A stretch of 64,000 nt of DNA from a virus (taxonomy: Duplodnaviria; Caudoviricetes): positions 64,001 through 128,000 of IMG/VR virus record IMGVR_UViG_3300002835_000001; one strand, 5' to 3'. Shown here one piece after another: positions 65 to 50,905 of this stretch. Numbering within the stretch: position 1 is the stretch's first letter; every line of letters starts with the position of its first letter. The notes below the pieces were generated by a model, which saw only the letters and a list, made by a program, of their open reading frames with translations, was not told the origin of the DNA and did no database searches. The translations under genes were made by a program, and so were the position numbers.

Positions 65-880
65 TTATATTCCAAATCTACCTCTGTCTACGTTATAGTT
101 TTGTAAAAGTTCTGCAGCGGATAACGATCTGTTATAAATTCTAGCAATGGCGATATGTCCATTAAAATTATGAACACCGTCAGTTAATCCGGCACCATAT
201 GTTCCTACAACATATGTTGCATCAGGTATGGTACCAGTTTGTGCAAAAGTGTATACCTCCACACCATTTATATAACCTCTAGTTGTTGTACCATCCCACG
301 TTCCCGATATATAACTCCAAGCGTTATTTGGTATACTTCCACTTGTTCCACCTGATCTAGCACTAGTTGTATTGTTCGCCCAATGTAATGACATTGTTGT
401 ACCACCATCAATAGAATCGATAACACCAAAATACATATTACTAGTTGCGGAAATCACACCACCCCTAATTGTACCCGTTCCAACAGACGCTCTAGTTGGT
501 TTAATCCAAGCATCAACAGTAATTTGTGATGTTGGTTTAGCATTAAAATTATTAATCTGTACATAATCGTTAACACCATCAAAAACAACCGCACCTCCAT
601 TATTGAATGAGAATGTTGGTGAATTTATAAACTGTCCTCGGCAAGCTGATGGAGATAAATCATTCCATTGACTATTACAATTTGTACATCCAGGATTTGT
701 TGCATAATATTGACAACCATAACCACAATCATAATAATTTACATCATTATATGATTGACTACGTCCGGCGTCTAACCATAAGACGATACCATTTTGTACT
801 GCGGTTGGGTAGTTCTGAATTACACCACTAGTGTTAGTGATGTTAGATGATATTATATTTCCGTTTACGTTTAATGGCAT
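65..880 (-). CDS. LamG/concanavalin A-like domain protein (putative virion adhesin head) with a Cys-rich loop
   Basis: LWLDAG, VVFDGVNDYV, TVDAWIKP, WSYISGTWDG, YINGVE, IYNRSLSAAELLQNY motifs typical of LamG-like phage proteins. Confidence 0.8.
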   Translation of the reverse strand: MPLNVNGNIISSNITNTSGVIQNYPTAVQNGIVLWLDAGRSQSYNDVNYYDCGYGCQYYATNPGCTNCNSQWNDLSPSACRGQFINSPTFSFNNGGAVVFDGVNDYVQINNFNAKPTSQITVDAWIKPTRASVGTGTIRGGVISATSNMYFGVIDSIDGGTTMSLHWANNTTSARSGGTSGSIPNNAWSYISGTWDGTTTRGYINGVEVYTFAQTGTIPDATYVVGTYGAGLTDGVHNFNGHIAIARIYNRSLSAAELLQNYNVDRGRFGI

Positions 881-892
881 ATCTTATATTAT

Positions 893-1609
893 TTAAACAC
901 CATATCTTCCTCTTTCGGTTTGGAAGTTTTGTGCTATTTCGTGTCTTTCTAAAACTCTATTATATCCTCTAACGATACCTATTCTACCATTAAATTGTGA
1001 ACTAGGTGAACTATATATTGCACCTATATTAAATTGTCCCGTACCTGAGTATTGTGTTTCAACAGAAGCGGGTGCGGTTTGTTTAATTGTGTTTGCAAAA
1101 AATTGTTTTCTAAATGTTATTCCATCATATGTAAACACCCAATGATACCAAGTATTTGCGGAAGGTCTGTAGTTATTTTGATAATCATTATCATTTGAAT
1201 ACATTCCATATATCATACCTCTTGCACCATCTTGATATAAAATGTGTAACCCTATACCGGTACCGTATGCTCCTTGACCAAATAATCCAAACGAAGATGT
1301 ACTAGCCATGTATACCCATATCTCTAAGGTAAAACTACCTGTAAGAGGCATACTACCGATACTGGCATATCCTGAAGCACTGGATGTTATTGAACCACCA
1401 TTACTACTATCAAATCCGGTAGAATTTAATGTAAAATTTCTACCATTACCACTCATGTCTGTCCAAGTACCACTAGACCCATTGTATGAATCAATATCCG
1501 CAGCGTCAAGATAAAATAACATCCCGTCAGTTATTATTTTATTTTTAAAAATCCCTGCGGATGTTATGTCACCAGTTTGTATTATATTTCCGTTAATATC
1601 TAATGGCAT
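893..1609 (-). CDS. LamG-like domain protein
   Basis: FYLDAADIDSY, WTDMSGNGRN, FTLEIWVY, WYHWVFTYDG, YNRVLERHEIAQNF. Confidence 0.8.
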   Translation of the reverse strand: MPLDINGNIIQTGDITSAGIFKNKIITDGMLFYLDAADIDSYNGSSGTWTDMSGNGRNFTLNSTGFDSSNGGSITSSASGYASIGSMPLTGSFTLEIWVYMASTSSFGLFGQGAYGTGIGLHILYQDGARGMIYGMYSNDNDYQNNYRPSANTWYHWVFTYDGITFRKQFFANTIKQTAPASVETQYSGTGQFNIGAIYSSPSSQFNGRIGIVRGYNRVLERHEIAQNFQTERGRYGV

Positions 1610-4600
1610 TATTCAGGTCTTTTTGGTGTTGCGTCGTTAGGATTAACTTCTTGCAACATAAATTTATATACTTTATTTTGTTTATTATTATATAAGAACA
1701 AATCATTTTCACCCTCCACGATTGTATAGTCACCAATACCATTACTTAAAGATAAATCGGAAGTGAAAAGTGTGTTCCATCTAAATGATGCGGAACCCAA
1801 ATTTTGTGTACCATTAAATCCAGGTGTTACGCCTGTTCTAGTTATTTTAAGTATTTCTTCATAGTTAGTACTTGATGACGATTTGAAAAACCAACCTGTA
1901 GTGTCACCCGCTTCAGCATATTCAACAAATGTTGTTTGATGACCTGCGGTAAAAGTGGGTGTGGCTGTAGGTCCTGAAATTGCCGATCTAAATGCCATCA
2001 TATGATTATTATTGTCATAACCTGAAAAAACTCCGTAAGTATTTGCACCACCGGTTCTTGCAATAACCCTTCCACTTGTAACTGTTAAAGTATTATTAAT
2101 TGAAATTGCAGTACTTGTACTTGCACCTCTTCCTGTTACACTTGCTAAAGTATCTGTTTCAGTATAACTTGTTATATATCCTGCACCATTTGTAAGTTCG
2201 TTATTATTCGTAGGAATAGTTTGATCGCCCGTATTTGTACCTGATGAAGTACCACTAAAATTTGTTGCAGATATTGTACCCGCGAATACAGAGTTACCAG
2301 TTGTGTCAATAGTAAAATAAGTATTAGTACCTACTGTTGCCCAACTTTTACCAATTTTAAATTTATCTGCATCGGAATTATCTATACCTACCGTCCAACC
2401 TAATACACCATTAATATCAAATGAAACAAATGGATCTCCACCTGTTGGACCTAAAGTTCTTAATGCTAAAACGGCATGAGCATTTTCATTAGAACTTGTA
2501 TTATGCATATAAATTACAGGTACATTTGTACTTGCAGGTGTACTATAAGTACTATTACCGTTTTCTATTATAAATCCTGTATTGGTAGTTGCTCCTCTTG
2601 TTATTACATTTTGTAAAGTGGATGTTTCTGTGTAAGAACTAATATAACCGCTAGGGTTAGTTGCGTTGTATGGTGTAAATCCAAGTGCGGTTGTAACATT
2701 ACCACTGGTTATACCGGTTAAATAGGCACTATTATTTGTGAACTGTGAAATGTTCATTGATGTTAACGATCCAGCAGTGGTTGCCGTTGTTGCATTACCA
2801 CTTAATGCACCTGTAAATGTTGTTGCACTCACCGTACTAAATGTTGGAGTGCTAGTTGTTAACAACGCTTGGTTAAGATATGTTCCAAAACCTGTGGTAG
2901 ATGATAATGTAATTTGTGAAGAACCTGAAACAACACCCTCAGTGTTTAATCTTGTTTTAATTCCTGTTGAGTAGTTCGTTGTTGCAGTTAAATCAATTTG
3001 TGATGAACCTGAAACTAAACCTACGGGAATACTTGATATTGAACCGAATGTTATCTGTGAAGAACCTGACACTAAACCACTTGGTCTGCCAGTTATACTA
3101 CCAAATTGTACTTGTGCCGAACCAGAAAAAACACCCTCAGTATTTAATTCTTTTTTAACACCATCTAAAAAATGAACAGAACCAGTATCTAATGTTACTG
3201 TCCGTGTGGATGATATATCCCCACCTCCACTCAAACCAGCACCGGCAGTAATTGAAACTGTTGTGTGATCTATATGTTGATTCGCAACGTAATTTGTTGT
3301 TGCATTATGGTTAACTTGAACTGAACCACTAATAACACCATCACTATTTAATTTTGATTTAACACCCGTTGTAAATGTTGCTGATGATGTATCAATTGCA
3401 ATATCATCCGCATTTACTGTTATACCATTACCCGCACCCACATTAATTGTCCGTGTAGATGATATATCTCCACCACCAGTTAAACCACTACCTGCGGTAA
3501 TTGAAACCGTTGTGTGGTCTATATGTTGATTCGCAACGTAATTTGTTGTTGTGTTGTGATTAACTTGAACCGATCCACTTATAACACCATCTGTATTTAA
3601 TTTAGATTTTATTGTGGTGTCAATAGAAGATGTAAAAGTATTTAAACTTCCCGTTGATGATTCAATTGCAGTTATGTTAGGGTTTGTTATATTTCCCGTA
3701 ACTTTTAAAGTACCTGTTATTTCTGTATTTGAATTAATAGATACCTTAGAACCATTATCGAATATATTTGAAGTTGTTAAATGGTGACCGTGTCCGTTAT
3801 TTTCTACCTTTGTTAGGTAATTCCCATCTAATAGTGGTGCGTTGTCAATATCATTACCTAAAGGACCAAATAACATGATGCTTGCATCATTGGTACCCGT
3901 ATCCATATGTTTAAATTTCCATTGATTTGTTAATGAATCATAAAATAATGAAGCGGTAATGTTTGTTGAACCAGAATCAAAAACGGAAATACCCGCATAT
4001 CTAAATGCTGGGCTATCTGTGTTTAATACAATTGTATTGGTTCCAATTGACACTGCAGATGCAGTAATATTTTCTAAAGATGATGAACCCTGTACAATTA
4101 AATTTTGACTAATGTAAAGTGAACCTGTTATTGTTTGTGTTCCTTGAAAATTATTACTACCTGTTGTTGCATAACTTCCAGTTTTTGCTTCAATTGAATC
4201 TACCCGATTTTTTGTCCCTAATGTGGTTGTTGCAATACTAGAACTTAAACTTCCTATGGATGAACTTAATCCTGATGTTGTAGTTGCAACACTAGAAGAT
4301 AAACTTCCGATGGATGAACTTAATCCAGATGTTGTAGTTGCAACACTAGAACTTAAATCATTGGTTGTTGTTGCAATTGAAGAACTAAATGTACCATAAC
4401 CAGTTGTTCCTGTTAGATTAACTTGTATAGAACCAGATAGAACACTTTCAGAATTCATCTTGTCTTTTATTGTTGTATTAATTGAACTAGTAAATGAATT
4501 TAACGAACCAGTACTCGTTTCAATAGAATCAACCCGATTTTTTGTTCCTAATGTTGTTGTTGCAATAGAGGAAGAAAGACTTCCAATACTTGAACTTAAT

Positions 4601-5961
4601 CCGCTTGTTGTTGTTGCAACACTAGAACTTAAACTTCCGACACTGGAACTAAGTCCACTAGTTGTTGTTGCGACAGATGAAGATAAACTTCCAATACTTG
4701 AACTTAATCCGCTTGTTGTTGTTGCAACACTAGAACTTAACCCTAATGTTGTCGTTGCAACACTAGAACTTAATCCTAATGTTGTGGTTGCAACACTAGA
4801 ACTTAAAGAACTAATACTTGAACTTAATCCGCTTGTTGTTGTTGCAACACTAGAACTTAAACTTTCAATACTAGAACTTAACCCTAATGTTGTCGTTGCA
4901 ACCGATGAAGATAGTGAACTCACACTTGTAGATATACTAGAACTAAATGTTGAATATCCCGTTGTTCCTGTTAATAAAACTTGAACGCTTCCAGATATGA
5001 CTGTTTCCGTATTAAGTTTATTTTTAATTGTTGTGTCAATAGAACTACTGAAAATATTTAAACTACTTGTGGTAGACTCTATAGATGTTAACCGACTGTT
5101 TTGTGTGGAATTGGTTGAATTGTTTGAACTTGTGTAAGAGTTAAATGTAATCTCATCCAACTTTCCAGTACCCACAGGAACACCATTTAAACTTATTGAA
5201 CCCGAAATGGTAAGTGCCCCTGTAATTTCAGTATTTGAATTAACTCTTAGTCCGTTTGTATTTGAAATGGATGCTGTGGCCGCTCCATCTGCAATCCGTG
5301 TTAAATTAAGACCTGTAACCCCACTTGCAGGGATATTAAATAGATTTATACCATCTCCTTTAAAAGAACCTGAGAATGAACCCGTATATGAACCACTAAA
5401 GGATTCTAAACTACCTAATCTATTATTAATAGAACCACTTACGGTATTGTACGAAGAGGTAAAACTATTAAAATCTAATCTAATACTACTACTAGTACTT
5501 TCCAAAGAGGTTAATCTACCTGACGCACTTGATGTAAACGTATTTAAACTTCCTGTTGATGTTTGTAACGTTCCAATTACGGCATTGTTTGAACCAGTGT
5601 AAGTGTTAAGTAATTCTATTGAACCTGTGACACCTTCAATACTTGTTAATTTACTATTTTGTGTGGTGTTGGTGCTATTATTTGAAATTGTAAATAAATT
5701 AAAATCAGTTCTAATACTACCACTATCAGATTCAAGTGACGTTAATCTTCCACTCACACTCGAAGTATATGTGTTGAAGCTAGAGGTTAAAGTATATTTT
5801 GGAGCAAAGGAAGCTGTATCTGCACTGGTAATATTACCAGAAACACTACCATTAATGGTGCCGAGTACGTTTAAGTTACCCGAAACGAGTAAATTATTAG
5901 AAATTTCCCCCGAACCAGATACTGATAGGGAGCCCGATATGTGAGGATCAAATATATTCAT
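1609..5961 (-). CDS. Long tail fibre-like structural protein (1450 aa) with Ser/Thr repeats and a conserved C-terminal module
   Basis: Low-complexity S/T/G repeats; modules shared with the other fibres in the window; C-terminus LGSASFRWNTLFTSDLSLSNGIGDYTIVEG. Confidence 0.7.
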   Translation of the reverse strand: MNIFDPHISGSLSVSGSGEISNNLLVSGNLNVLGTINGSVSGNITSADTASFAPKYTLTSSFNTYTSSVSGRLTSLESDSGSIRTDFNLFTISNNSTNTTQNSKLTSIEGVTGSIELLNTYTGSNNAVIGTLQTSTGSLNTFTSSASGRLTSLESTSSSIRLDFNSFTSSYNTVSGSINNRLGSLESFSGSYTGSFSGSFKGDGINLFNIPASGVTGLNLTRIADGAATASISNTNGLRVNSNTEITGALTISGSISLNGVPVGTGKLDEITFNSYTSSNNSTNSTQNSRLTSIESTTSSLNIFSSSIDTTIKNKLNTETVISGSVQVLLTGTTGYSTFSSSISTSVSSLSSSVATTTLGLSSSIESLSSSVATTTSGLSSSISSLSSSVATTTLGLSSSVATTTLGLSSSVATTTSGLSSSIGSLSSSVATTTSGLSSSVGSLSSSVATTTSGLSSSIGSLSSSIATTTLGTKNRVDSIETSTGSLNSFTSSINTTIKDKMNSESVLSGSIQVNLTGTTGYGTFSSSIATTTNDLSSSVATTTSGLSSSIGSLSSSVATTTSGLSSSIGSLSSSIATTTLGTKNRVDSIEAKTGSYATTGSNNFQGTQTITGSLYISQNLIVQGSSSLENITASAVSIGTNTIVLNTDSPAFRYAGISVFDSGSTNITASLFYDSLTNQWKFKHMDTGTNDASIMLFGPLGNDIDNAPLLDGNYLTKVENNGHGHHLTTSNIFDNGSKVSINSNTEITGTLKVTGNITNPNITAIESSTGSLNTFTSSIDTTIKSKLNTDGVISGSVQVNHNTTTNYVANQHIDHTTVSITAGSGLTGGGDISSTRTINVGAGNGITVNADDIAIDTSSATFTTGVKSKLNSDGVISGSVQVNHNATTNYVANQHIDHTTVSITAGAGLSGGGDISSTRTVTLDTGSVHFLDGVKKELNTEGVFSGSAQVQFGSITGRPSGLVSGSSQITFGSISSIPVGLVSGSSQIDLTATTNYSTGIKTRLNTEGVVSGSSQITLSSTTGFGTYLNQALLTTSTPTFSTVSATTFTGALSGNATTATTAGSLTSMNISQFTNNSAYLTGITSGNVTTALGFTPYNATNPSGYISSYTETSTLQNVITRGATTNTGFIIENGNSTYSTPASTNVPVIYMHNTSSNENAHAVLALRTLGPTGGDPFVSFDINGVLGWTVGIDNSDADKFKIGKSWATVGTNTYFTIDTTGNSVFAGTISATNFSGTSSGTNTGDQTIPTNNNELTNGAGYITSYTETDTLASVTGRGASTSTAISINNTLTVTSGRVIARTGGANTYGVFSGYDNNNHMMAFRSAISGPTATPTFTAGHQTTFVEYAEAGDTTGWFFKSSSSTNYEEILKITRTGVTPGFNGTQNLGSASFRWNTLFTSDLSLSNGIGDYTIVEGENDLFLYNNKQNKVYKFMLQEVNPNDATPKRPE
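4200..4940 (-). repeat. In-frame coding tandem repeat, 7+11 aa units (SSSIGSL / SSSVATTTSGL)
   Basis: Recurrent gttgcaacactagaactt-like units on the + strand with 33/54-nt periodicity. Confidence 0.85.
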
Positions 5962-5982
5962 CTAAATGTGTATTATACTTAG

Positions 5983-25937: not shown

Positions 25938-26023
25938 ATATTCTATATTAATATATACATTTTAATTGAATTTATCAAGGAGTTAATTATATGATTTTTC
26001 TCACATAATTGGTCTGAAAACGG

Positions 26024-33973: not shown

Positions 33974-34263
33974 TATAAAAAGGGATCAGGTGATGGGTTT
34001 ATCATGTCACCATACACATCTGGTTGTACTTGACTTCTTTCTTCAGCTGAAACAATGTTTGATGCCATAACAATTTCTTCTTTTGACCCAGATATTGTTT
34101 CACCCGCAGCTAATTTTCTTGTTATCTCATTACTTACAATTTCATCAATTGCAGATTCACATCTTGCAAATACAAAATTTTCAAACCAATCTTGTGGATC
34201 TACTGCAACCCATCTTAATGCTTTCTCTTGTGCTTCTGTTAATGTTACTGTGTACTGTGCCAT
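33973..34263 (-). CDS. Small acidic protein in the C1q cassette (possible fibre assembly factor)
   Basis: 96-aa ORF between C1q genes; role inferred from position only. Confidence 0.5.
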   Translation of the reverse strand: MAQYTVTLTEAQEKALRWVAVDPQDWFENFVFARCESAIDEIVSNEITRKLAAGETISGSKEEIVMASNIVSAEERSQVQPDVYGDMINPSPDPFL

Positions 34264-34294: not shown

Positions 34295-34888
34295 TTAACC
34301 AATTTTCCACCCCCAAAATCCTGTGTGTGCTCCATAAAGTCTAGTTGTATTTGCATTAATATAAACTCTAATGTCAACATAGTCACCCGCGGCTAATGAC
34401 ATAACTCCCGATACACAAATACCATCAGGATAATTTCCGGCAGCGCCATGTGTATAAATTGTATATGGTGTTTGACCATTATTCCAACCTAATCCACCAT
34501 TTTTTGCAAATTGTGGGTGAATATAACCGGCACCAGTGTTGTATGGTGAGGAAAGATCGTTCAACATATAAAGATTCATCATAAAATGATAATAACCCGC
34601 AGATGGTGCTGTGAATCTACCTGTTGATGTACTAAAATTACCTGTTCTATCTGTTGTTACCCATGCAATTCTTGAATCTAATATATTCCACTGTGCCGCA
34701 CCGTTCCAACCAGAATCGTTTGGGTACCTCCACGCATTTAATGATCCGTTTGCTCTAAATATTGGGTTGTTAATACCTCTTCTATGCCAACCACTAATTG
34801 CTAATGATGTGCTTGGTAATGACAATGTACCAGATGCTGGCGTAATTGTTTTGTCCCCAAATATTGTACCTTCTACATTTAATGGCAT
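34295..34888 (-). CDS. C1q-like globular domain protein
   Basis: FSTSTGRFTAPSAGYYHF...LAAGDYVDI...FWGWKI. Confidence 0.75.
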   Translation of the reverse strand: MPLNVEGTIFGDKTITPASGTLSLPSTSLAISGWHRRGINNPIFRANGSLNAWRYPNDSGWNGAAQWNILDSRIAWVTTDRTGNFSTSTGRFTAPSAGYYHFMMNLYMLNDLSSPYNTGAGYIHPQFAKNGGLGWNNGQTPYTIYTHGAAGNYPDGICVSGVMSLAAGDYVDIRVYINANTTRLYGAHTGFWGWKIG

Positions 34889-40225: not shown

Positions 40226-41869
40226 TTATGTGTATTTGTATCTTATTATTACTATTCCACTTCCGCCGTCTCCACCTTTATTTGTTGCATTATAGTGTGC
40301 ACCACCGCCGCCACCTCCACCACTATTTGTGCCTCCGTTGCCACCTGGAGTATTAGCCCATGTACAACACGCACCTCCACCACCTGCAGCACCTACACCA
40401 ACCGATTGTCCACCACCTAGTGCAGTACCTAAAGCACCACCGCCACCACCGCCAATACCACCATATCCACCTGTTGATAGTGAATAACTACCTCCACCAC
40501 CTCCACCACCAAAGTAAAATGGTTTACCTAAAATTCCTGTAAATTTACCCGCACCACCATTGGGTTGGTTGTTTCCATCAGCTCCCGCCGCTCCCGCTCC
40601 ACCACCTCCACCGGAGTAATATGCGTTACCTTGAAAACCCCCTCTGAATCCTTGACCGGAAGTACCCGCACCTGAACCATATGTTCCTGGAGCCACAAAA
40701 TCGTTATTATAACCTGCGGACCCACCGCCTGAACCTCCTGAGTTACCAAAATGTATACCTAACCCTTGTGTGTTATATGATACACCGCCCCAACCACCAC
40801 CTATAGCAGTTAAACCATTAAATGATGAATTACCTCCATTACCACCTGTTACCGTTGGGTGTCCTCCTGTTGTTCCAGCTGGCGCACCCGCACCACCTCC
40901 ACCAACAGTTATTACATATGAAGTTGGGGTTAAAATTGTTGTTCCTGTTAGAACACCTCCACCACCTCCACCACCACCCATATTTGTTCCACCTCCACCG
41001 CCACCAGCGGCAATTAGATATTCAACTTCTATTGAACCTGAACGAAGTGATGAAAGGGTAAACGTACCACTACTATTAAATCTATGTACTCTATATTCAC
41101 CAACAGTTGTGATAACACCACCTGTTGCAACTATTTTTTGTTGTTTAAGTGCTGCCCCTTCAACGGTTACTGTTGCCGATTCTAACTTTGCCTGTCTATT
41201 GTTTAATAGGTCAGATATTGTTGGTTCCGAACCATCACATAAGTCAACTCTTGGTTCAAAAAATTGTAATCTTGTTGTGTTATCACCACAATAGTAATGA
41301 TAAGTTCTATGATTAAGAGTTGTTGTACTAGGCCCGAATTTCATATCGTTACCTACGTTACATCCATTAATACCCGACACTTTACCACTACCTATAACCC
41401 ATCTACCTGTATCTGCGTGTTGATTTGAGACCGGATAAAAATGCGGAAAAACGTGACCAACAACTAAATACCATACATTTTGAGTAAAGGTACCGGTACC
41501 AACACAATCCCAATATGGGTTACATTCTTCACCACCATCTGATAATCTTATAACACATTGTCCACCACCATTTGTACCTAAGTAAAATGTTCCACCTGCA
41601 GAAGATGATGTTCGTTTAACCCAAACAGACATTCTATATAATTTTGTGTTATCAGCACTAAAAGAACTATGATTCCAACCACCATCGTCAGCAGCACTAC
41701 CATTCGCTCTTGTTTCCCATAAAACAGAACTATTACCAAAAGGGTCTGTGCCCATTACTCTTTCGTTTTCATCCGTACTACCATTTTGACTAAAAGAACC
41801 TATTCCACCTGAACCAGTTGTCCAAGAGTATGGATCTAAAATGTTTGTTTTCCTATAGAATATTGGCAT
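40226..41869 (-). CDS. Glycine-rich domain protein (putative adhesin/fibre tip)
   Basis: HRFNSSGTF, VEYLIAAGGGGGG, many GGGGGG runs, terminal GGDGGSGIVIIRY. Confidence 0.7.
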   Translation of the reverse strand: MPIFYRKTNILDPYSWTTGSGGIGSFSQNGSTDENERVMGTDPFGNSSVLWETRANGSAADDGGWNHSSFSADNTKLYRMSVWVKRTSSSAGGTFYLGTNGGGQCVIRLSDGGEECNPYWDCVGTGTFTQNVWYLVVGHVFPHFYPVSNQHADTGRWVIGSGKVSGINGCNVGNDMKFGPSTTTLNHRTYHYYCGDNTTRLQFFEPRVDLCDGSEPTISDLLNNRQAKLESATVTVEGAALKQQKIVATGGVITTVGEYRVHRFNSSGTFTLSSLRSGSIEVEYLIAAGGGGGGTNMGGGGGGGGVLTGTTILTPTSYVITVGGGGAGAPAGTTGGHPTVTGGNGGNSSFNGLTAIGGGWGGVSYNTQGLGIHFGNSGGSGGGSAGYNNDFVAPGTYGSGAGTSGQGFRGGFQGNAYYSGGGGGAGAAGADGNNQPNGGAGKFTGILGKPFYFGGGGGGGSYSLSTGGYGGIGGGGGGALGTALGGGQSVGVGAAGGGGACCTWANTPGGNGGTNSGGGGGGGAHYNATNKGGDGGSGIVIIRYKYT

Positions 41870-41883: not shown

Positions 41884-42711
41884 TTAAACTCCAAACCTTG
41901 ATCTTCCGTTATTATAATTTTGTAAAATTTCGGTTGCCGTTAACGCTCTATTATAAATTCTCACAATTGAAACACCACCATTAAACCATCTTTCACCACT
42001 TGTACTAAATCCTCTACCAATATTTACATTACCCATAGTTCCCGTCCAATTTGCAAAAGTAAGACTTGACGCATTAGTACCATTATAATAACTTAAAAAA
42101 CTACTTGCACCTGTTTTAGTAATAACAGCACAATGTATTCCCGACGAACTTAATCCTGATGGTACAACATTGACACCATTATAATTACCTGCAGCGTCTC
42201 CAACAACCCATCCTAATGTTCCATTTGAATCTTGTTCTAATCTAGGTCCAATATTACTATAACCACTAGCACCTCCATTAAACACTAACCAATTACAATC
42301 AATTGGGTTTCTATAGTTAGAAACTGAATCTGATTTAAACCAAATTTCCACAGTAAAGGTTGAAAATGAACCCACATTACCAACACTTACAAAATCAGGA
42401 GACCCACTAAAATAAATTGACCCTCCTCCATTATTGTAAGAGACTGCCGTACCACCATTAAATGTTCCGTCATATCCATTACCACTCATATCTTTCCATT
42501 GAGTGTTGCAGTTTGTACAACCGGGATTTGATGAATAATATTGACAACCATATCCACAATCATAATAATTGGATGTATTGATATATGATGCATTATTTCC
42601 AACATCTAACCATAATACCATTCCCCGTGTAATTACTGCAGGACTTGCCGCCTCACCTGTTGGATTAAAATTTGTTGCCGAAAAAGTATTCCCCCCAATT
42701 ATAATTCCCAT
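41884..42711 (-). CDS. LamG-like domain protein with a Cys-rich loop
   Basis: LWLDVG, WKDMSGNG, FTVEIWFK, IYNRALTATEILQNY. Confidence 0.8.
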   Translation of the reverse strand: MGIIIGGNTFSATNFNPTGEAASPAVITRGMVLWLDVGNNASYINTSNYYDCGYGCQYYSSNPGCTNCNTQWKDMSGNGYDGTFNGGTAVSYNNGGGSIYFSGSPDFVSVGNVGSFSTFTVEIWFKSDSVSNYRNPIDCNWLVFNGGASGYSNIGPRLEQDSNGTLGWVVGDAAGNYNGVNVVPSGLSSSGIHCAVITKTGASSFLSYYNGTNASSLTFANWTGTMGNVNIGRGFSTSGERWFNGGVSIVRIYNRALTATEILQNYNNGRSRFGV

Positions 42712-43497: not shown

Positions 43498-43498
43498 A

Positions 43499-45892
43499 TT
43501 ATATAATCTCTGTTAAATCTATTTTGAACTTCTTACCGTTCTTATGATTTATAATATACAGATTTTCTTGACCTTCCTGTATAGTCCAATCACCTGTTGT
43601 TCCATCTATTTCATTTCCACCTTCTTTACCTTCGTTACTTAGGTGTAAGTCATTGGTATATAAGTTGGCCCATCTAAGTGATGAACTACCTAAATTGTAT
43701 GAATTGTTTGCAAATGGAACCATATGACCATCTGTTTGAATTCTGATTCTTTGTACGGCATTTGACCAAAAATCTATATTTCCATTTTCTGTGTAAATAT
43801 TTAAACCTCCAGCTCCTGCCCACGATGATGCGTTTTGGTTTCCAAGCCAAATGTAAGCATTACGAGTACCCGCCTTAAAGTTCACTTGAACATATTCATT
43901 AGTCCCGGCTGATGTATTTTCAAATCTAACCATTTCACCACTTCCACGAGCATGTAATGTTAATGCCGGACTCACACCTACACCTAAACTACTAAATTGT
44001 ACTGCGTTACCCGTACCAACACTTTGGTTAATTGTATATGCGGTAATATTTGTGGCAGTACCACTAATATTCATAGATTGACCACTAAGTAATGCGGCCG
44101 CCGCTGCTGCTGTATAACTTCTATAATAGTAATCACTTGTATTATGTCCAGCAAAATAACCCATACCCGATGCATTTCTTTCAGATCCACCACCAGATGC
44201 ATTGAAATAGTTGTTAACAATATAACCGTTTGAGTCAGCAACAACTATTCTATTTGCAGTTCCGCTTGTTTGTGATGGTGTAAATCCACCGGCAGTCGTT
44301 GAATTTGTGGCCGATGTTGCATTTCCACTTAATGCTCCAGTAAATGTTGTTGCACTTACTGTTGAGAATGTTGGTGTTGATGTTGTTAATAACGCCTGAT
44401 TTAAATAAGTACCAAATCCCGTTGTTGATGTTAAACTAATTTGTGAAGAACCCGAAACAAGTCCTGATGGTATACTAGATATAGAACCAAAAGTTATTTG
44501 AGATGATCCAGATACGATACCAGACGGAATTCCAGTAAGAGAACCGAATGTTACTTGAGCACTTCCAGATATAACACCGTCCGCATTCATTTTGGTTTTT
44601 ACACCCGTAGTAAATGTTGCGGATGTTGTGTCAAGACTAATTGTCCGCGTAGATGATATGTCACCACCTCCACTTAAACCATTACCGGCACTAATTGATA
44701 CTGATGTGTGGTCAATGTGCCTATTTGCAACATATCCTGTTGTTGAATCGTGTGCAATTTGAGATGAACCAGAAACTAATGTTGTTCCTGTTGAGCTAAA
44801 TGTTCCATTAACAATTGTATTTGAAAGCATCGTAATCGTTGTTCCATCATCACTAATATTGCTATTGGTTAAATGTTCAATTCCTGTACTTTTAACTAAT
44901 CTGTTTGATGTGATATACGATTCATTACCTACATTATTATATGTCTCTGGACCCATTAACAAGACAGATGATGTAACTGAAGCTTGATTTTGGTGAACAA
45001 ATAGCCATTGATTATTAATTGAATCAAATAAAATTGAACCAGATACCTGTGGTGATGACCCACTATCAATAACTGCAAGTCCACCGAATCTAACGCTTGG
45101 ATTCAAAGCGTTAACGGTTATAATGTTATCGGCAATATTAAGAATTGATGAACTAACGTGTTGAATTGACGATGAACCAGCGACAATTAAATCTTGAGAG
45201 ATGAAAAGGGATCCGGTAATTGTTTGTGAACCTTGAAATATATTTGAACCAGTGGTTGCATAACTACCTGTTTTTGCTTCGATAGAATCGACCCGATTCT
45301 TTGTATTAAGAGTGGTAGTCGCAACTGAACTAGATAAACTTCCAATACTTGTAGATATACTTGAACTGAATGTTGAGTATCCCGTTGTTCCTGTTATTTC
45401 AATTTGTGATGAACCTGATGCAATACCTGATGGTTTTGAAGCGATATTATCCCAAGTTGTTTGAGTTATCGAACCACTCAACACATATCTACCATCATAT
45501 GATGATGTTAATTGTGATGAACCTGATACAATACCTGAAGGTATTCCCGTTAATCCTGAATATGTAATTTGTGATGAACCTGATACCAATGGTGTAACCG
45601 TTGATACGATACTACCTGATATTGTTTGATTACCAATAAAAGTATTTGAACCCGTAGTTGCTAAACTTGAACTATATGTGTTAAAAGAAGATGTTAACAA
45701 ATAACTTGGAGCCGAGGATGCTGTTAGAGCGTTTGTAATTGAACCACTCATTGTTAAATCACCCAATGTTAATCCTGTCATTCCTGATAGGTCGAGTGTA
45801 CCTCCTGAAAATGATATATTTGAACCACTTCCTGAAATAAATGATACTACATTACCCGAATTGTCTTTAAATTTAAATGCTCCGTTTGCCAT
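43499..45892 (-). CDS. Tail fibre-like protein (797 aa)
   Basis: Shared modules; C-terminus NSYNLGSSSLRWANLYTNDLHLSN...GDWTIQEGQENLYIIN. Confidence 0.7.
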   Translation of the reverse strand: MANGAFKFKDNSGNVVSFISGSGSNISFSGGTLDLSGMTGLTLGDLTMSGSITNALTASSAPSYLLTSSFNTYSSSLATTGSNTFIGNQTISGSIVSTVTPLVSGSSQITYSGLTGIPSGIVSGSSQLTSSYDGRYVLSGSITQTTWDNIASKPSGIASGSSQIEITGTTGYSTFSSSISTSIGSLSSSVATTTLNTKNRVDSIEAKTGSYATTGSNIFQGSQTITGSLFISQDLIVAGSSSIQHVSSSILNIADNIITVNALNPSVRFGGLAVIDSGSSPQVSGSILFDSINNQWLFVHQNQASVTSSVLLMGPETYNNVGNESYITSNRLVKSTGIEHLTNSNISDDGTTITMLSNTIVNGTFSSTGTTLVSGSSQIAHDSTTGYVANRHIDHTSVSISAGNGLSGGGDISSTRTISLDTTSATFTTGVKTKMNADGVISGSAQVTFGSLTGIPSGIVSGSSQITFGSISSIPSGLVSGSSQISLTSTTGFGTYLNQALLTTSTPTFSTVSATTFTGALSGNATSATNSTTAGGFTPSQTSGTANRIVVADSNGYIVNNYFNASGGGSERNASGMGYFAGHNTSDYYYRSYTAAAAAALLSGQSMNISGTATNITAYTINQSVGTGNAVQFSSLGVGVSPALTLHARGSGEMVRFENTSAGTNEYVQVNFKAGTRNAYIWLGNQNASSWAGAGGLNIYTENGNIDFWSNAVQRIRIQTDGHMVPFANNSYNLGSSSLRWANLYTNDLHLSNEGKEGGNEIDGTTGDWTIQEGQENLYIINHKNGKKFKIDLTEII

Positions 45893-45922
45893 TTTTATAA
45901 ATAGTTCATAGATTGAATTAGA

Positions 45923-46651
45923 TTAAAGTCCGAATCTACTTTTTTGAGTATTATAATTTTGTGTGACCATTGAACTTGTAAAACCAATACCTTTATAAAC
46001 TTTAACAGAAGATACCCTCATATTACCGTAGGTTCCACCCGCATTACCAATTAAAAGGGGTTCACTAGAATTGTTAACAGATTTACTAGTGAAATCACTA
46101 GAATCAACTAATGAGCCATTTACATATAGTGTAACTGTATTTGATATTCTTGTTACCACCCCGTGCATCCATCCGTTAACAATACCAGAATTTGAAACAC
46201 CACCTTCATATACACCATCGTTGGTATATAATCTAATGGCATTACTACTAGTTGATGTCATAACAATCCAATTTGATGCTGGCCATTTTGATGGAAAAGT
46301 ACCTATTATACCCTGATATGGTGTGGCTACCGATACAATATAAACCCAAACTTCAATTGTGAATTCTCCAGTGCCAAAACTCCAATTTGAAGAATATGGA
46401 ATTGTAATATAATCATTACTACCGTCAAGATTAATATAACCTTGATTATTACTACTAAATGTAGGTCCGTTTATTAATGTACCATGATTATTTTTTCCAG
46501 ACATATCATACCAATCTACACCAGAACCCGAATAAGATTCTAATGCCGATGCGTCTAAATGTAAAACCAATCCTCTTTCGATTATGTTTTTATAATCACC
46601 CACACTAGCGTGTGTTCCATCATATATGTGACCCCCAATATTAAACGGCAT
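45923..46651 (-). CDS. LamG-like domain protein
   Basis: LHLDAS, WYDMSGKNNHGTLINGPTF, LDGSNDYI, FTIEVWVY, LYVNG. Confidence 0.82.
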   Translation of the reverse strand: MPFNIGGHIYDGTHASVGDYKNIIERGLVLHLDASALESYSGSGVDWYDMSGKNNHGTLINGPTFSSNNQGYINLDGSNDYITIPYSSNWSFGTGEFTIEVWVYIVSVATPYQGIIGTFPSKWPASNWIVMTSTSSNAIRLYTNDGVYEGGVSNSGIVNGWMHGVVTRISNTVTLYVNGSLVDSSDFTSKSVNNSSEPLLIGNAGGTYGNMRVSSVKVYKGIGFTSSMVTQNYNTQKSRFGL

Positions 46652-46661
46652 AATTTATATT

Positions 46662-47984: not shown

Positions 47985-47985
47985 A

Positions 47986-48237
47986 TTAGTGATGTGTTTC
48001 TTCTTTAAGCCATGTTGGCGTGTTTAATATTTCAATAATTTCATTATGTGTATATGGTCCTTGTTTTGTTGTTAAATTAGAAACGCTAAGTGGCATTTCA
48101 TCTGAATCATATTTCACAAAAGTTAATGTTTCGTCAACTGATTTTCTAACGGTACCAGATGACGTTTCTTGAACTTCGTTGAAATCAATTTTATCTAATT
48201 CACTTACATCAAAAATTATATATTTTCTATTTTCCAT
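47986..48237 (-). CDS. Small phage protein (83 aa; start revised to MENRKYIIF)
   Basis: ATG at 48237 follows the upstream stop at 48239; the longer track ORF overlaps the fibre gene. Confidence 0.55.
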   Translation of the reverse strand: MENRKYIIFDVSELDKIDFNEVQETSSGTVRKSVDETLTFVKYDSDEMPLSVSNLTTKQGPYTHNEIIEILNTPTWLKEETHH

Positions 48238-48238
48238 A

Positions 48239-50905
48239 TTACGATTTTTTTGGTGTTGCAGTTGACGGATCTTCTTCCTGTAAAACAAAAGAGTAAACTT
48301 TATTATTTTTATTATTATATAAATATAATTTTTCTTCACCCTCAACAATTGTGTAATCACCAATACCATTACTTAAACTTAAGTCAGATGTATAGACAGT
48401 ACCCCAACGTAATGATGACGTTCCTAAGTCTTGTGTTCCATTTGCTGCCGGCCGAACCGTTCCGACAGATGTTATTCGTAATCTTTCAGCTGGTGAACCA
48501 CCATTTATTCTTGTACCAAATGATAGATATGATGCATAATCTCCACCGGTTGAGTTTTCTTTACCTCCTTTAATGTAGGAGAATGTGTTAATAATTGAAC
48601 TAGTTCCGCTAAAATATCCAGCAAATGAAATACCTCCACCAGTTCCAGTTGTTGCGGATGTGGTGTCAAATACTCTTATTGTGGTTGTTACGTCTCCTTG
48701 ACTTACATTAGGACCATCAACCGCAAGTCTGAATCCTTGGGTGTCGGTAGTTCCAAGACCTAGGTTAGCAGACTCATTTAAGGTCATTGCAGTTGTAAAG
48801 TTGATGGCATTACCTGTAGTTCCTGATGGGGCTTGTTGCCAAAGAAATGCACCTGTATTTTCTAAATAAAATCTTGAAGCTGCAGCAGTGTTAATATATA
48901 TATTGTTGCTACCATTAAAATAAGTGTTGTTACCAAAAAGTGCATTGTTAAATCCATCATTATAAACAGACATTCTTGCACCTATTTGAATTACCTTTGA
49001 ACTTTCGCCCCATGAACTAGGTGTGACACCTACACCAACGTTACTTGTTGTTACTAATGATCCAGTTACAGTTGTGTTTCCATTAACATCTAATTGTGAG
49101 TTTGGGGTATTTTTATTTATACCAACAAATGTACTATTACCATCAATTACAATATGATTTTTAGTAAAGTCATTTGAAACAATATATGTTTTACCATCTT
49201 GACCTTGGCCAAAATATGAACTCATTGTTGATCCTGAGTTTACGGCATTTCTAACTCTTATAAAGTTTCTTGTTCCTGATGTATAATCTCCATTCCAAAA
49301 TTCACCCATCACATTCTGTGTTGAAACAGAACTTGTATATATATTTAATTGTGTTGAGGAAGGACTATTAATTGATATGTTACCTGTTGTTGATATACTA
49401 CCAGTAAGTATTGTATCACCATTATTCTTTAATTTTAAATTTGTTAAACCAGCACTATTTTTAAAATTAAGGTCAACATTAGAATCAATACTTATTTCAG
49501 GGTTACCAGATGCCCCCGAAGTATCGAATATGATTCCTTTGTCTACACCTACTAATACGCTACCTGTAATTGATAAACTACCACTAATTCCAATTCCACC
49601 TCCAGTTTCGCTTATAATACTATCACCAACATGTTCATTACCCGTACCTTTTAATATCCGATTATTCGTAGGGTAACTTTCGTTACCAACGTTGTTGTAG
49701 GTCTGTGGACCCATTAACGCCACGGATGAGGTTATGTTGGTACCATCACCTCTATGTATAAAAATAAATTCGTCCTGCACCGCATCATATAAAAAAGAAC
49801 CAGAACCACCAATTGATCCGCTATCAAATACGCTCAAACCAGCAAATCTAATTGCAGGATTTGCGGTGTTTAAGTTTACAATGTTTGCACCAATGTTAAC
49901 CGCAGATGCTGTTATATTTTGTAAAGACGAACTACCTTGTACAACTAAATCAGAACTAATATATAAACTACCAGTAATTGTTTGTATACCTACAAAGTTA
50001 TTACTTCCTGTTGTTGCATAGCTACCTGTTTTAAATTCAATTGAATCTACCCGATTTTTTATTCCTAATGTTGTTGTTGTAATTGAACTAGATAATGTAT
50101 TAATTGAATTTGATATCGATGAACTAAATGTTGAATATCCCGTTGTTCCTGTTATATCGATTTGTGATGAACCTGAGGCAATCCCAACTGGTTTATTTGC
50201 AATATTATCCCAAGTTGTTTGGGTAATACTACCACTTAACACATAACGAGAATCGTAACTACTTGTTAATTGTGATGAACCTGAAATAATTCCACTAGGG
50301 ACGTTACTTAATCCAGTATATGATATTTGTGAAGAACCTGATACCAATGGTGTAACCGTTGATACGATACTACCAGTTACTACAATGCCATTACCAAAAT
50401 GAATTGCATTTCCGTCTGATGATAAAATTCTATTTCCGGCATATATTTGTGTGCTACCTTTTAATGCAATAATTCCCGTTGTTGGGTCTAAAATAACGTC
50501 TCCACCACCTGAAGTTGCAAGTGTAATATTACCATCATTACTTTGTAATGTAATTGTATCCGAACCCGCTTCTAATATTTTAAATGATTGTCCAACATCT
50601 GTTGTAATCTGTAATTCTTGTGATGTACTACCTAAAACTTTTGTACCATCAATGTATAGTGAACCTGAGGATATATAAACGTGTCTAAATTGTTGAGTTG
50701 AGCTACCTAAGTCATACGTGTTGTTAACGGCAGGTAATATTGAACCACTTATTGTTTGTGTTCCTTTAAATAAATTACTACCTGTTGTTGCGGTTGAACC
50801 AGTTAAACCATTAAATGATGCTGTTGTTGCAAACACATTTAAATCGGTAATTGTGGTTCCGTTTAAACTTAAACTACTGGTGAGTTGAGGTCCGTCTATT
50901 CTCAT
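48239..50905 (-). CDS. Tail fibre-like protein (888 aa)
   Basis: Shared modules; C-terminus LGTSSLRWGTVYTSDLSLSNGIGDYTIVEG, paralogous to the 1450-aa fibre. Confidence 0.7.
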   Translation of the reverse strand: MRIDGPQLTSSLSLNGTTITDLNVFATTASFNGLTGSTATTGSNLFKGTQTISGSILPAVNNTYDLGSSTQQFRHVYISSGSLYIDGTKVLGSTSQELQITTDVGQSFKILEAGSDTITLQSNDGNITLATSGGGDVILDPTTGIIALKGSTQIYAGNRILSSDGNAIHFGNGIVVTGSIVSTVTPLVSGSSQISYTGLSNVPSGIISGSSQLTSSYDSRYVLSGSITQTTWDNIANKPVGIASGSSQIDITGTTGYSTFSSSISNSINTLSSSITTTTLGIKNRVDSIEFKTGSYATTGSNNFVGIQTITGSLYISSDLVVQGSSSLQNITASAVNIGANIVNLNTANPAIRFAGLSVFDSGSIGGSGSFLYDAVQDEFIFIHRGDGTNITSSVALMGPQTYNNVGNESYPTNNRILKGTGNEHVGDSIISETGGGIGISGSLSITGSVLVGVDKGIIFDTSGASGNPEISIDSNVDLNFKNSAGLTNLKLKNNGDTILTGSISTTGNISINSPSSTQLNIYTSSVSTQNVMGEFWNGDYTSGTRNFIRVRNAVNSGSTMSSYFGQGQDGKTYIVSNDFTKNHIVIDGNSTFVGINKNTPNSQLDVNGNTTVTGSLVTTSNVGVGVTPSSWGESSKVIQIGARMSVYNDGFNNALFGNNTYFNGSNNIYINTAAASRFYLENTGAFLWQQAPSGTTGNAINFTTAMTLNESANLGLGTTDTQGFRLAVDGPNVSQGDVTTTIRVFDTTSATTGTGGGISFAGYFSGTSSIINTFSYIKGGKENSTGGDYASYLSFGTRINGGSPAERLRITSVGTVRPAANGTQDLGTSSLRWGTVYTSDLSLSNGIGDYTIVEGEEKLYLYNNKNNKVYSFVLQEEDPSTATPKKS

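What the first reader, a model, noticed from the sequence alone, without database searches (positions are those of the whole stretch)
65..50905. Four fibre-plus-plug-in-head cassettes: a shared fibre C-terminal module paired with a shared N-terminal motif on LamG and C1q heads
Seen: four fibres (1609, 34890, 43499, 48239) end in the same ~65-aa module, LG.S..RW..(L/V)(F/Y)T.DL.LSN...G.(W/Y)TI.EG...L(F/Y)..N. Each is followed by 2-3 small head genes. These heads have unrelated folds (LamG, C1q) but start alike: MPLNVNGNII, MPLDINGNII, MPLDINGNIV, MPFNIGGHIY, MPLYVKNNKV, MGIIIGGNTF, MPLNVEGTIF, MPIYLGGATY, MAIYVGDTTY. The fibre ending in S74 (50902) and the 811- and 267-aa proteins lack the module and have no head genes directly after them. 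Inference: a modular adhesin system in which heads dock on the fibre tip through an N-terminal beta-hairpin, like T-even gp37/gp38 but with several interchangeable heads per fibre.
Basis: partly seen in the sequence, partly recalled or inferred. Interest (0 to 1): 0.75.

Follow-up and report, generated by a model that had tools for sequence, protein, structure and literature searches.

The report
Plug-and-socket tail-fibre tips in phage
Four tail fibres of this large uncultured phage end in the same small cap domain, and each is followed by separately encoded sugar-binding-type "head" proteins that all begin with one short peptide; this pairing recurs in many aquatic phages, so the heads are most likely clipped onto the fibre tips to set host range.

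Summary
Four fibres end in one conserved C-terminal module. Nine downstream genes (six LamG, three C1q-fold) share an N-terminal peptide, M-[P/A/G]-hydrophobic-x-hydrophobic-x-[G/N]..hydrophobic.

The pairing is general:
- In 61 non-redundant IMG/VR contexts the module always lies at the extreme C-terminus. In 57 of them a gene with the peptide is among the next three genes (first gene 42/61 vs 54/261 background, p 7e-13).
- In reverse, LamG heads with the ~25-29-residue N-terminal extension follow a module-ending fibre (17 of 22). Of 93 LamG heads with a short N-terminus, one does (p 5e-15).
- Conservation is at protein level, and it survives inversion of the head genes.

The module is the last copy of a common fibre-shaft repeat plus a ~45-residue beta cap. 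That cap sits where other fibres carry the self-cleaving S74 chaperone.

Cultured cyanophages carry the module too (P-SCSP1, P-SSP3, S-CAM4). Complete runs of heads never exceed three, which matches a trimeric fibre.

Physical docking is inferred, not shown; the one complex prediction gave no verdict. The principle is known (T2/S16 gp38; KP32 docking peptide), but this pair is not described in the papers I found. The scan has noted similar plug-and-socket cassettes on other DNA (e1-3261988, e1-3542108, e1-5341871).

The parts
1609..5961 (-). Fibre 1 (1450 aa); C-terminal module at about 1612-1899 (subtype without insert, 11-residue tail)
   Evidence: module HMM E 8e-36, 11 aa from the end
893..1609 (-). 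Head 1a, LamG, 238 aa, starts MPLDINGNII; its ATG overlaps the fibre's stop
   Evidence: (Laminin_G_3 E 5e-17)
65..880 (-). Head 1b, LamG, 271 aa, starts MPLNVNGNII; a third head may lie beyond the window start
   Evidence: Laminin_G_3 E 6e-24
34890..39776 (-). Fibre 2 (1628 aa); C-terminal module at about 34893-35186 (subtype with insert)
   Evidence: E 5e-46, 0 aa from the end; cap folded with pLDDT 87-93
34295..34888 (-). Head 2a, C1q/TNF-fold, 197 aa, starts MPLNVEGTIF
   Evidence: Foldseek E 1.5e-8 to C1QL1
33973..34263 (-). 96-aa accessory gene without the motif; a ~90-aa homologue accompanies the C1q-type cassettes in other phages (candidate assembly factor)
   Evidence: no Pfam or PHROG family; only unnamed viral clusters in the Atlas
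33389..33973 (-). Head 2b, C1q-fold, 194 aa, starts MPIYLGGATY
32801..33385 (-). Head 2c, C1q-fold, 194 aa, starts MAIYVGDTTY
43499..45892 (-). Fibre 3 (797 aa); C-terminal module at about 43502-43801 (subtype with insert)
   Evidence: E 4e-50; tblastn finds the module in 84 GenBank phage records
42721..43497 (-). Head 3a, LamG-like, 258 aa, starts MPLYVKNNKV
   Evidence: 34% identity to head 1a, E 5e-33
41884..42711 (-). Head 3b, LamG, 275 aa, starts MGIIIGGNTF
   Evidence: Laminin_G_3 E 1e-12
40226..41869 (-). 547-aa glycine-rich protein starting MPIFYRKTNIL; possible third, divergent plug-bearing partner of fibre 3; conserved in this position in relatives
   Evidence: Gly_rich_2 E 1.5e-10; same order in L004-006, L075
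39835..40224 (-). 129-aa protein (phrog_7759) that closes cassette 3 in this phage and its relatives; role unknown
   Evidence: E 8.5e-35
48239..50905 (-). Fibre 4 (888 aa); C-terminal module at about 48242-48529 (subtype without insert)
   Evidence: E 4e-37, 10 aa from the end
47986..48237 (-). 83-aa gene (MENRKYIIF...) between fibre 4 and its heads, without the motif; similar small genes occupy the same place in L010 and L014
46662..47984 (-). Head 4a, LamG with a ~190-residue insert, 440 aa, starts MPLDINGNIV
   Evidence: (E 7.5e-18)
45923..46651 (-). Head 4b, LamG, 242 aa, starts MPFNIGGHIY
   Evidence: E 8e-17
50902..55824 (-). Contrast case: fibre ending in a Peptidase_S74 intramolecular chaperone (TTSDRKLKTN cleavage motif); no module and no heads after it

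Best explanation
Each cassette encodes a split receptor-binding fibre.

The long gene makes a trimeric shaft. Its last shaft repeat (P..N..Y.LGS.S.RW..YT) is followed by a ~45-residue four-stranded beta cap (SDL.LSN...G.WTIQEG..LY.IN...K.K..L.E), which I call the socket. The one to three genes that follow make lectin-type heads: LamG, C1q/TNF-fold, other small folds and, in some phages, a whole further fibre.

The first ~12 residues of each head form a short amphipathic beta-hairpin, which I call the plug. In LamG heads a second conserved segment, DITS.GIF, follows it. The plug attaches the head to the cap, probably by extending the cap's sheet, so that the heads become the distal, receptor-contacting end of the fibre.

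Because the fibre is a trimer there are three sites. That would explain why runs of heads stop at three and why C1q-type cassettes almost always have three paralogues.

Shown: the sequence features, their protein-level conservation, the two-way co-occurrence and the folds of the heads.

Inferred: virion location of the heads, direct plug-cap contact, and stoichiometry.
For: 1. Module to motif. There are 78 full modules outside the window, all 0-23 aa from the C-terminus. In 61 non-redundant contexts the first downstream gene starts M[PAGST][LIVFM] in 42, against 54 of 261 background genes (OR 8.9, p 7e-13). One of the first three genes does so in 57 of 61.

2. All 25 LamG and 21 of 22 C1q heads behind modules carry the motif; the one exception is a miscalled start.

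3. Motif to module. LamG heads with a 25-29-residue N-terminal extension have a module-ending fibre within 3.5 kb upstream (17 of 22). Among 93 with an ~11-residue N-terminus, 1 does (OR 313, p 5e-15). C1q proteins without a module upstream have other N-termini. Flavobacterium phage immuto has LamG 'structural proteins' without the motif behind a fibre without the module.

4. Four independent ENA/JGI contexts show the same pairing.

5. Selection acts on the protein. 62 of 122 identical residue positions in the nine motifs use different codons. In L035-037 the three motif-bearing heads lie inverted on the other strand, next to the fibre end.

6. The same peptide heads unrelated folds. MPLNVEGTIF on C1q and MPLNVNGNII on LamG agree at 7 of 10 positions. 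It also heads 968-1487-aa fibres in L064, L072, L073 and L076.

7. In the AlphaFold models the cap is a confident four-strand unit (pLDDT 87-93). The head has an N-terminal hairpin at residues 3-5 and 8-10, a disordered linker, then a jelly roll.

8. LamG head homologues form the C-terminal end of long virion structural proteins elsewhere (S-PM2 p176; phrog_8510 and phrog_24074).

9. The module ends the trimeric T7-type fibre gp28 of P-SCSP1u (trimer seen by cryo-EM, PMC10575957).

10. In the analogous P-SSP7 cassette of three paralogues downstream of the fibre, host-range mutations map to those genes (PMC5520035).

11. Complete runs of heads number 1, 2 or 3 and never more.
Against: No structural or biochemical evidence of contact exists. 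The distal fibre of P-SCSP1u was not resolved, and no proteomic detection of a plug-bearing head was found.

Adjacent genes are inherited together, so the co-occurrence could partly reflect cassette descent; the loci are related and the p-values overstate independence.

A few modules have no plug-bearing neighbour (L065, L070, L047/048).

Runs of two heads (8 cases) do not fit a simple three-site rule.

The N-terminal hairpin in the model has low confidence (pLDDT about 50).
Confidence: 0.6

Rival explanations
1. The heads are virion adhesins, but the shared N-terminal peptide does not bind the cap. Either it trimerises the heads' own stalk, or it docks on another common site or on an accessory protein. 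The cap would then be only the fibre's folding nucleus, and the two travel together because they belong to one inherited cassette.
For: The cap occupies the position of the S74 folding chaperone and begins with a related TSD-type motif. Small conserved accessory genes sit inside the cassettes (33973-34263, 47986-48237). C1q domains are trimeric by nature.
Against: The peptide is also found on LamG heads and on long fibres that need no such trimeriser. LamG heads lacking the extension almost never follow the module (1 of 93). Accessory genes are absent from many cassettes that keep the pairing.
Confidence: 0.15
2. The downstream proteins are not part of the virion. They act as assembly chaperones or transient caps for the fibre tip, like T4 gp38/gp57A, lambda/Mu Tfa or the Alteromonas phage chaperone caps.
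For: Genes directly downstream of fibre genes are often chaperones. A trans-acting cap model exists for marine Alteromonas phages (PMC10579305). The 547-aa protein has a weak 'tail fiber assembly' PHROG hit.
Against: The heads have lectin and C1q/TNF binding folds, not chaperone folds. Several diverged paralogues per fibre, and hypervariable head domains next to a conserved N-terminus (Mizuno 2014, PMC3909814), fit receptor binding. Homologous LamG domains are the ends of virion structural proteins. No Tfa or GP38 family hit was found.
Confidence: 0.12
3. The shared fibre end and head start are a nucleic-acid feature, not a protein interface: a recombination junction for swapping cassettes, or a translational-coupling signal.
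For: Head starts lie 1-12 nt after the preceding stop, sometimes overlapping it. Cassette content differs between close relatives.
Against: Half of the conserved residues use different codons, and module nucleotide identity (0.50-0.73) is no higher than needed for the protein identity. The motif persists in an inverted cassette (L035-037) and behind intervening genes, namely an 83-aa gene and a 500-aa halogenase. It also persists across phages whose modules are only 33-40% identical to fibre 2's.
Confidence: 0.03

Closest known systems
T2/T6/S16-type long-tail-fibre tip: gp37 plus the separately encoded gp38 adhesin (PDB 6F45; from my knowledge; PMC12032242 listed)
   Same: The distal fibre gene is followed directly by a small separately translated receptor-binding protein, which attaches to the fibre's C-terminal tip through its N-terminal part.
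   Different: No homology: the heads have no GP38 Pfam hit. Here the heads are LamG or C1q folds. There are up to three heads per fibre instead of one monomer. The attachment element is a ~12-25-residue peptide rather than a folded domain. The fibre end is a different domain.
Anchor-branch receptor-binding systems of Klebsiella podophages KP32/K11/KP34: branching domain of RBP1 plus the conserved 29-residue N-terminal docking peptide of RBP2 (PMC6872550; PMC13352976)
   Same: A short conserved N-terminal peptide on an otherwise variable receptor-binding protein is the sole docking element. It is portable between unrelated binding domains. The partner domain lies on the neighbouring upstream gene product.
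   Different: In KP32 the socket is a T4 gp10-like branching domain near the N-terminus of RBP1, so the complex branches. Here the socket is the extreme C-terminal cap, so the assembly would be end-on. The peptides are not alike (KP32 gp38 starts MLDNFNQPKG). The KP32 pair is experimentally proven; this one is not.
Peptidase_S74 intramolecular chaperone at fibre and tailspike C-termini (T5 pb1 4uw8, endosialidase 4hiz, K5 lyase 2x3h)
   Same: The same conserved last shaft repeat precedes it. The junction motif is alike (TSDxxLxxN). It occupies the same position at the fibre's end.
   Different: The cap has no S74 domain. It lacks the catalytic Lys, and two of the four modules lack the Ser. It is predicted all-beta. 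Nothing suggests that it is cleaved off.
Three-paralogue cassette (genes 37-39) downstream of the tail fibre of Prochlorococcus phage P-SSP7 (Schwartz and Lindell 2017, PMC5520035)
   Same: Three tandem paralogous small genes lie directly after a T7-type fibre gene, in a metagenomic island. Resistance-breaking (host-range) mutations map to them.
   Different: The P-SSP7 fibre does not end in this module, and the profile gives no hit. Only gp37 has a loosely similar start (MPITLNGSGTV).
Complement C1q globular head, a heterotrimer of the paralogous A, B and C chains (PDB 1pk6)
   Same: The fold is the same (rank 38). Three diverged paralogues are encoded together, which suggests a heterotrimeric head.
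   Different: Heterotrimer formation is untested here. The paralogues arose separately within phage lineages. The stalk is a phage fibre, not collagen.

Membership tests
Laminin_G_3 / concanavalin A-like lectin (PF13385) | Profile match above Pfam's gathering score | tested here: met
   Five heads score 49-85 bits against a cut-off of 27.6. The sixth (42721-43497) matches only by BLASTP to a member (E 5e-33).
C1q/TNF jelly-roll domain (PF00386) | Profile match above the gathering score | tested here: not met
   Scores are 18-21 bits against a cut-off of 23.7. The F-T-A-P-x-x-G-x-Y-x-F signature is present.
C1q/TNF jelly-roll domain (PF00386) | Ten-strand jelly-roll fold superposable on solved C1q domains | tested here: met
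   AlphaFold model with pLDDT 75. Foldseek E 1.5e-8, TM 0.77 and rmsd 3.2 to C1QL1 4d7y; more than 400 C1q/TNF matches.
C1q/TNF jelly-roll domain (PF00386) | Trimeric assembly | not testable with these tools
   No multimer model was obtained.
T2/S16 gp38 adhesin (PF05268 GP38, Gp38_N) | Sequence homology to GP38 | tested here: not met
   No such family at E <= 0.01 in any head.
T2/S16 gp38 adhesin (PF05268 GP38, Gp38_N) | Gene directly downstream of the distal fibre gene | tested here: met
T2/S16 gp38 adhesin (PF05268 GP38, Gp38_N) | Bound to the fibre tip in the virion | not testable with these tools
   Needs proteomics or a structure.
KP32-type anchor-branch RBP system | Short conserved N-terminal peptide on the secondary RBP | tested here: met
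   Nine of nine heads here. Two-way association with the upstream domain. No sequence likeness to the KP32 peptide.
KP32-type anchor-branch RBP system | T4 gp10-like branching domain in the primary RBP | tested here: inconclusive
   The Pfam scan of the fibres shows no such domain. No fold comparison of the whole fibres was made. The candidate socket is C-terminal instead.
KP32-type anchor-branch RBP system | Deletion of the peptide or of the socket abolishes incorporation | not testable with these tools
   Requires an experiment.
Peptidase_S74 intramolecular chaperone (PF13884) | S74 domain with the Ser-Lys dyad (SDxRxK) at the fibre's C-terminus | tested here: not met
   No PF13884 hit in the four fibres, whereas the fifth fibre hits at E 1e-14. 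The motif reads SDLSLSN or NDLHLSN, without Lys.
Tail fibre assembly proteins (Tfa / Caudo_TAP) | Profile match | tested here: not met
   None in the nine heads. Only the 547-aa protein has a weak phrog_863 hit (E 1e-7).

The most novel reading that the evidence does not exclude
The cap and peptide form a general end-on joint of aquatic phage fibres. It mounts exactly three heads on a homotrimeric fibre, either one head per chain or a true heterotrimer of three paralogues (as in complement C1q A/B/C). One fibre would then display up to three different receptor specificities, and phages could re-tool host range by swapping heads of any fold behind a 12-residue tag.
Probability: 0.3. Interest if true: 0.8.

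Novelty: new variant of a known kind. Interest (0 to 1): 0.62.

Why it matters
Host range of marine and freshwater phages, including the abundant cyanophages, is set by genes in hypervariable islands next to the tail fibre, and most of these are annotated as hypothetical.

A recognisable socket (the fibre cap) and plug (a 12-25-residue start peptide) would let annotators call the true receptor-binding proteins of many uncultured phages. The module profile hits about 13,000 protein clusters, although many of those hits are to the shaft repeat alone.

It would also explain why the N-termini of C1q genes recruit metagenomic reads while the domains do not (Mizuno 2014). It would predict which genes mutate in host-range evolution. 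And it would offer a small portable tag for mounting foreign binding domains on phage fibres, as was done with the KP32 docking peptide.

The three-head limit, if real, would be the first case of a heteromeric tip on a homotrimeric phage fibre.

Tried and rejected
- Complex prediction: three copies of the last 95 residues of fibre 2 plus the first 32 residues of the three C1q heads. It gave no verdict (scores 0.33, 0.01, 0.00; mark 0.32; controls not run). It counts neither for nor against binding.
- Fold search of the cap against 48,161 PDB representatives: best Z 4.2, a generic four-strand sheet with no informative match.
- Megablast of 18-19 kb of the window against GenBank phages found nothing. 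tblastn of the 499-aa protein also found nothing.
- A scoring matrix trained on the nine window N-termini was too narrow for distant loci (7 of 66 first genes), so I replaced it with simple pre-stated patterns.
- No whole genome is held for this window.
- The P-SSP7 fibre does not carry the module, so its genetics is an analogy only.
- The KP32 docking peptide shows no sequence likeness.
- The S-PM2 fibres lack the module; there LamG is fused to a long structural protein.
- The Atlas search for the 96-aa accessory protein gave only unnamed viral clusters.
- The A1002 'chain-like fibre' paper describes a different rope-and-dimer architecture.
- A literature search for heterotrimeric phage fibres with paralogous chains found nothing.
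- Module tail type correlates with Pro at head position 2 (p 1e-4). I judged this confounded by shared descent and did not use it.

Full report
**What is in the window**

All genes of the region lie on the minus strand. Translation confirms four long fibre genes: 1609-5961, 34890-39776, 43499-45892 and 48239-50905. Their last ~65-95 residues align with 20 invariant columns. There are two subtypes. Fibres 1609 and 48239 have no insert and carry an 11-residue tail. Fibres 34890 and 43499 have an 11-residue insert and end right after the last strand.

A simple pattern, ^M[PAG][LIF].[IVL], picks 10 of 58 minus-strand ORFs, and nine of those are these genes.

Five heads are Laminin_G_3 well above Pfam's cut-off. 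A sixth (42721-43497) is 34% identical to one of them (E 5e-33). The three 194-197-aa proteins fall just under Pfam's C1q cut-off. However, they carry the FTAP..G.Y.F signature, and an AlphaFold model (pLDDT 75) superposes on C1QL1, C1q and TNF-family domains (Foldseek E 1.5e-8, TM 0.77).

The fifth fibre (50902-55824) ends in a Peptidase_S74 chaperone. It and the 811-aa and 267-aa proteins lack the module, and no head follows them.

- An 83-aa gene sits between fibre 4 and its heads.
- A 96-aa gene sits among the C1q heads.
- A 547-aa glycine-rich protein (MPIFYRKTNIL...) plus a 129-aa protein complete cassette 3. They do so here and in close relatives.

**What the module is**

A profile of 65 modules was run against PDB sequences. 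It finds only the fibre gp28 of cyanophage P-SCSP1u at full length (E 2e-33). The distal part of that fibre was not resolved in the cryo-EM map, although the fibre was shown to be a trimer (PMC10575957).

The first half of the module matches, weakly, the segment just before the S74 cleavage site in T5 pb1, endosialidase, K5 lyase and a tailspike. A search of 1.84 billion cluster representatives gave 12,957 hits. It showed that this first half (P..N..Y.LGS.S.RW..Y) is a common shaft repeat, present up to 39 times in giant fibre proteins. Wherever the full module up to profile position 91 is listed, it lies 0-24 residues from the C-terminus.

So the module is the last shaft repeat plus a ~45-residue cap. 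AlphaFold folds the cap confidently as four strands (pLDDT 87-93), and it has no informative fold match.

The cap starts TSDLSLSN or TNDLHLSN, close to the S74 cleavage motif TTSDRKLKTN of the window's own fifth fibre. It lacks the catalytic Lys, and in two fibres also the Ser. It therefore sits where other fibres carry the self-cleaving chaperone, but it is not one.

**Is the pairing more than chance?**

*Forward test.* Scanning IMG/VR with the module gave 74 loci. A module HMM found 78 full modules, all at the C-terminal end. After removing near relatives of the window and duplicates, 61 contexts remained. In these:
- The first downstream gene starts M[PAGST][LIVFM] in 42, against 54 of 261 other same-strand genes (OR 8.9, p 7e-13).
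- A stricter pattern gives 33 of 61 against 29 of 261 (p 2e-12).
- One of the first three genes has the motif in 57 of 61.
- The background itself contains further genuine heads, so the test is conservative.
- All 25 LamG and 21 of 22 C1q heads behind modules have the motif; the exception is a miscalled start.

*Reverse test.* I collected 79 loci with LamG heads, whatever their neighbours. The heads fall into two classes. Those with a 25-29-residue N-terminal extension (the motif plus a second conserved segment, DITS.GIF) have a module-ending fibre within 3.5 kb upstream in 17 of 22 cases. Of 93 with an ~11-residue N-terminus, one does (OR 313, p 5e-15); several of the five extension-bearing heads without a module look like start-calling artefacts. 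C1q-fold proteins with no module upstream have quite different N-termini. Flavobacterium phage immuto has two LamG 'structural proteins' without the motif behind a fibre without the module.

*Independent contexts.* Four contexts taken from ENA/JGI assemblies through the representative search all show the pairing.

*Caveat.* The loci are related, so the p-values overstate independence. Still, the association holds in podoviruses, myoviruses and jumbo phages and across head folds.

**Protein or DNA signal?**

Among the nine motifs, 62 of 122 identical residue positions are encoded by different codons. Module nucleotide identity (0.50-0.73) merely tracks protein identity.

In L035-037 the three motif-bearing heads and two accessory genes lie on the opposite strand, converging on the fibre end. 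In other loci an 83-aa gene or a 500-aa tryptophan-halogenase gene separates fibre and heads. The pairing therefore does not depend on translational coupling or on a DNA junction.

**What the partners are**

The same start peptide heads several kinds of protein:
- LamG domains and C1q/TNF domains.
- Several unassigned 100-270-aa families.
- A short fibre with its own S74 chaperone (L180).
- Fibres of 968-1487 aa (L064, L072, L073, L076).

MPLNVEGTIF on a C1q head and MPLNVNGNII on a LamG head agree at 7 of 10 positions although the rest of the proteins is unrelated. So the peptide behaves as a portable tag.

In the head model it forms a hairpin (strands 3-5 and 8-10, low confidence), followed by a disordered linker and then the jelly roll.

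Homologues of the LamG heads form the C-terminal ends of long virion structural proteins in other phages (S-PM2 p176 with two LamG domains; phrog_8510 and phrog_24074). This is the fused counterpart of the split arrangement here.

Cultured carriers of the module include P-SCSP1, P-SSP3, P-GSP1, P-RSP2, NATL2A-133, S-CAM4 and ACG-2014 phages. Examples:
- P-SCSP1c: a T7-type fibre, then a 150-aa protein starting MAINIDSGKTIF.
- S-CAM4: a 1370-aa virion structural protein, then MPLHIGGRKYY (48 aa) and MSPIFVGNRKIY (775 aa).

**Number of heads**

Complete runs of consecutive motif-bearing genes number 0 (5 cases), 1 (17), 2 (8) or 3 (18), and never more. Eight of the nine C1q-type cassettes tabulated have three heads. 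The paralogues group by phage lineage rather than by position, except among close relatives. This implies repeated triplication or concerted evolution.

A limit of three fits three equivalent sites on a trimeric fibre, or a heterotrimeric head like complement C1q. I could not test this.

**Mechanism proposed**

The shaft trimerises. Its C-terminal cap presents a small sheet, and the N-terminal hairpin of each head adds to it. The heads then form the receptor-contacting end of the fibre.

The sequence facts, the selection on protein, the two-way association and the head folds are shown. Contact, virion location and stoichiometry are inferred.

Indirect support comes from two papers:
- Schwartz and Lindell 2017 (PMC5520035). 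In P-SSP7, three paralogous genes directly after the fibre gene collect the mutations that overcome host resistance. That fibre lacks this module, so it is an analogue.
- Mizuno et al. 2014 (PMC3909814). They saw C1q genes beside pelagiphage fibres whose N-terminal ends recruit metagenomic reads far better than the C1q domains.

**Comparison with known systems**

The principle is known in two forms:
- T2/S16 gp38 sits on the gp37 tip.
- In Klebsiella phages KP32/K11/KP34 a 29-residue N-terminal peptide of the second receptor-binding protein docks on a branching domain of the first. This was proven by deletion and by grafting the peptide onto a foreign enzyme (PMC13352976).

The present pair shares no sequence with either. 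Its socket is at the extreme C-terminus rather than in an N-proximal branching domain. It serves lectin-type heads of several folds, and it appears limited to three partners.

I found no paper describing it. The searchable library is incomplete; for example, Labrie et al. 2013 is not held.

The scan itself has flagged plug-and-socket cassettes on other DNA. These include a marine T7-like phage with socket, plug-bearing adhesin and chaperone (e1-3261988), and an aquatic podophage (e1-3542108). I did not check whether they carry the same module.

**Verdict**

It is a new variant of a known kind of system, of real practical value for annotating host-recognition genes in aquatic phages.

Noticed in passing
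window 33973-34263; L018-L022, L026, L027, L030, L035 downstream of the C1q heads: A conserved ~87-96-aa gene (starts like MAQYTVTLTEAQEKAL) accompanies essentially every C1q-type head cassette. It has no Pfam or PHROG family. It may be a dedicated assembly factor for the C1q heads.
   Followed up: partly
L029, L031-L034, L038-L041 (e.g. L038:4906-6423): A 500-aa flavin-dependent tryptophan halogenase gene (PF04820, E 6e-95) lies between the module-ending fibre and its three plug-bearing heads in one group of phages. This hints at halogenation of a fibre or head component.
   Followed up: no
P0010, P0014, P0096 and others: The first half of the module (P..N..DLGSS..RW..Y) is a shaft repeat found up to 39 times in fibre proteins of up to 5,300 aa. 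In P0096 the last repeat is followed by an S74 chaperone instead of the cap.
   Followed up: partly
L160-L163: Another system has three tandem paralogous C1q-fold proteins (313-325 aa, all starting MATYSSFKKI) with no module upstream. This is a second case that suggests heterotrimeric C1q-type fibres in phages.
   Followed up: no
L094-L155 (e.g. L121, L126, L131): Some phages carry arrays of up to seven tandem LamG genes with a short, different start (M[AS]F.YSPKIVTDGL) and no module-ending fibre nearby. How these heads are attached is unknown.
   Followed up: no
window 47986-48237; L001:10739-11077; L010, L014: A small ~80-110-aa protein (..FDVSELDKIDFNEV.. / ..YTHNEIIEIL..) recurs in fibre-head cassettes, including Flavobacterium phage immuto. 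It has no known family.
   Followed up: no
window 6000-32000: Between fibre cassettes 1 and 2 lies a ~26-kb biosynthetic block: a Nol-like carbamoyltransferase (14710-16374), three radical-SAM-like proteins (23366-27421) and others. Earlier notes of the scan mention shared C-terminal K-T-L-I tags here.
   Followed up: no
window 50902-55824 (about residues 1530-1545) and the four modules: The S74 cleavage motif TTSDRKLKTN of the fifth fibre resembles the start of the cap (TSDLSLSN / TNDLHLSN). This suggests that cap and S74 chaperone are alternative endings grafted at the same junction.
   Followed up: partly
L177:5225-5371 (S-CAM4): A 48-aa ORF consists of little more than the plug peptide (MPLHIGGRKYY...). 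It lies directly after the module-ending fibre and before a 775-aa plug-bearing protein. It may be a competitor, a spacer or a remnant.
   Followed up: no
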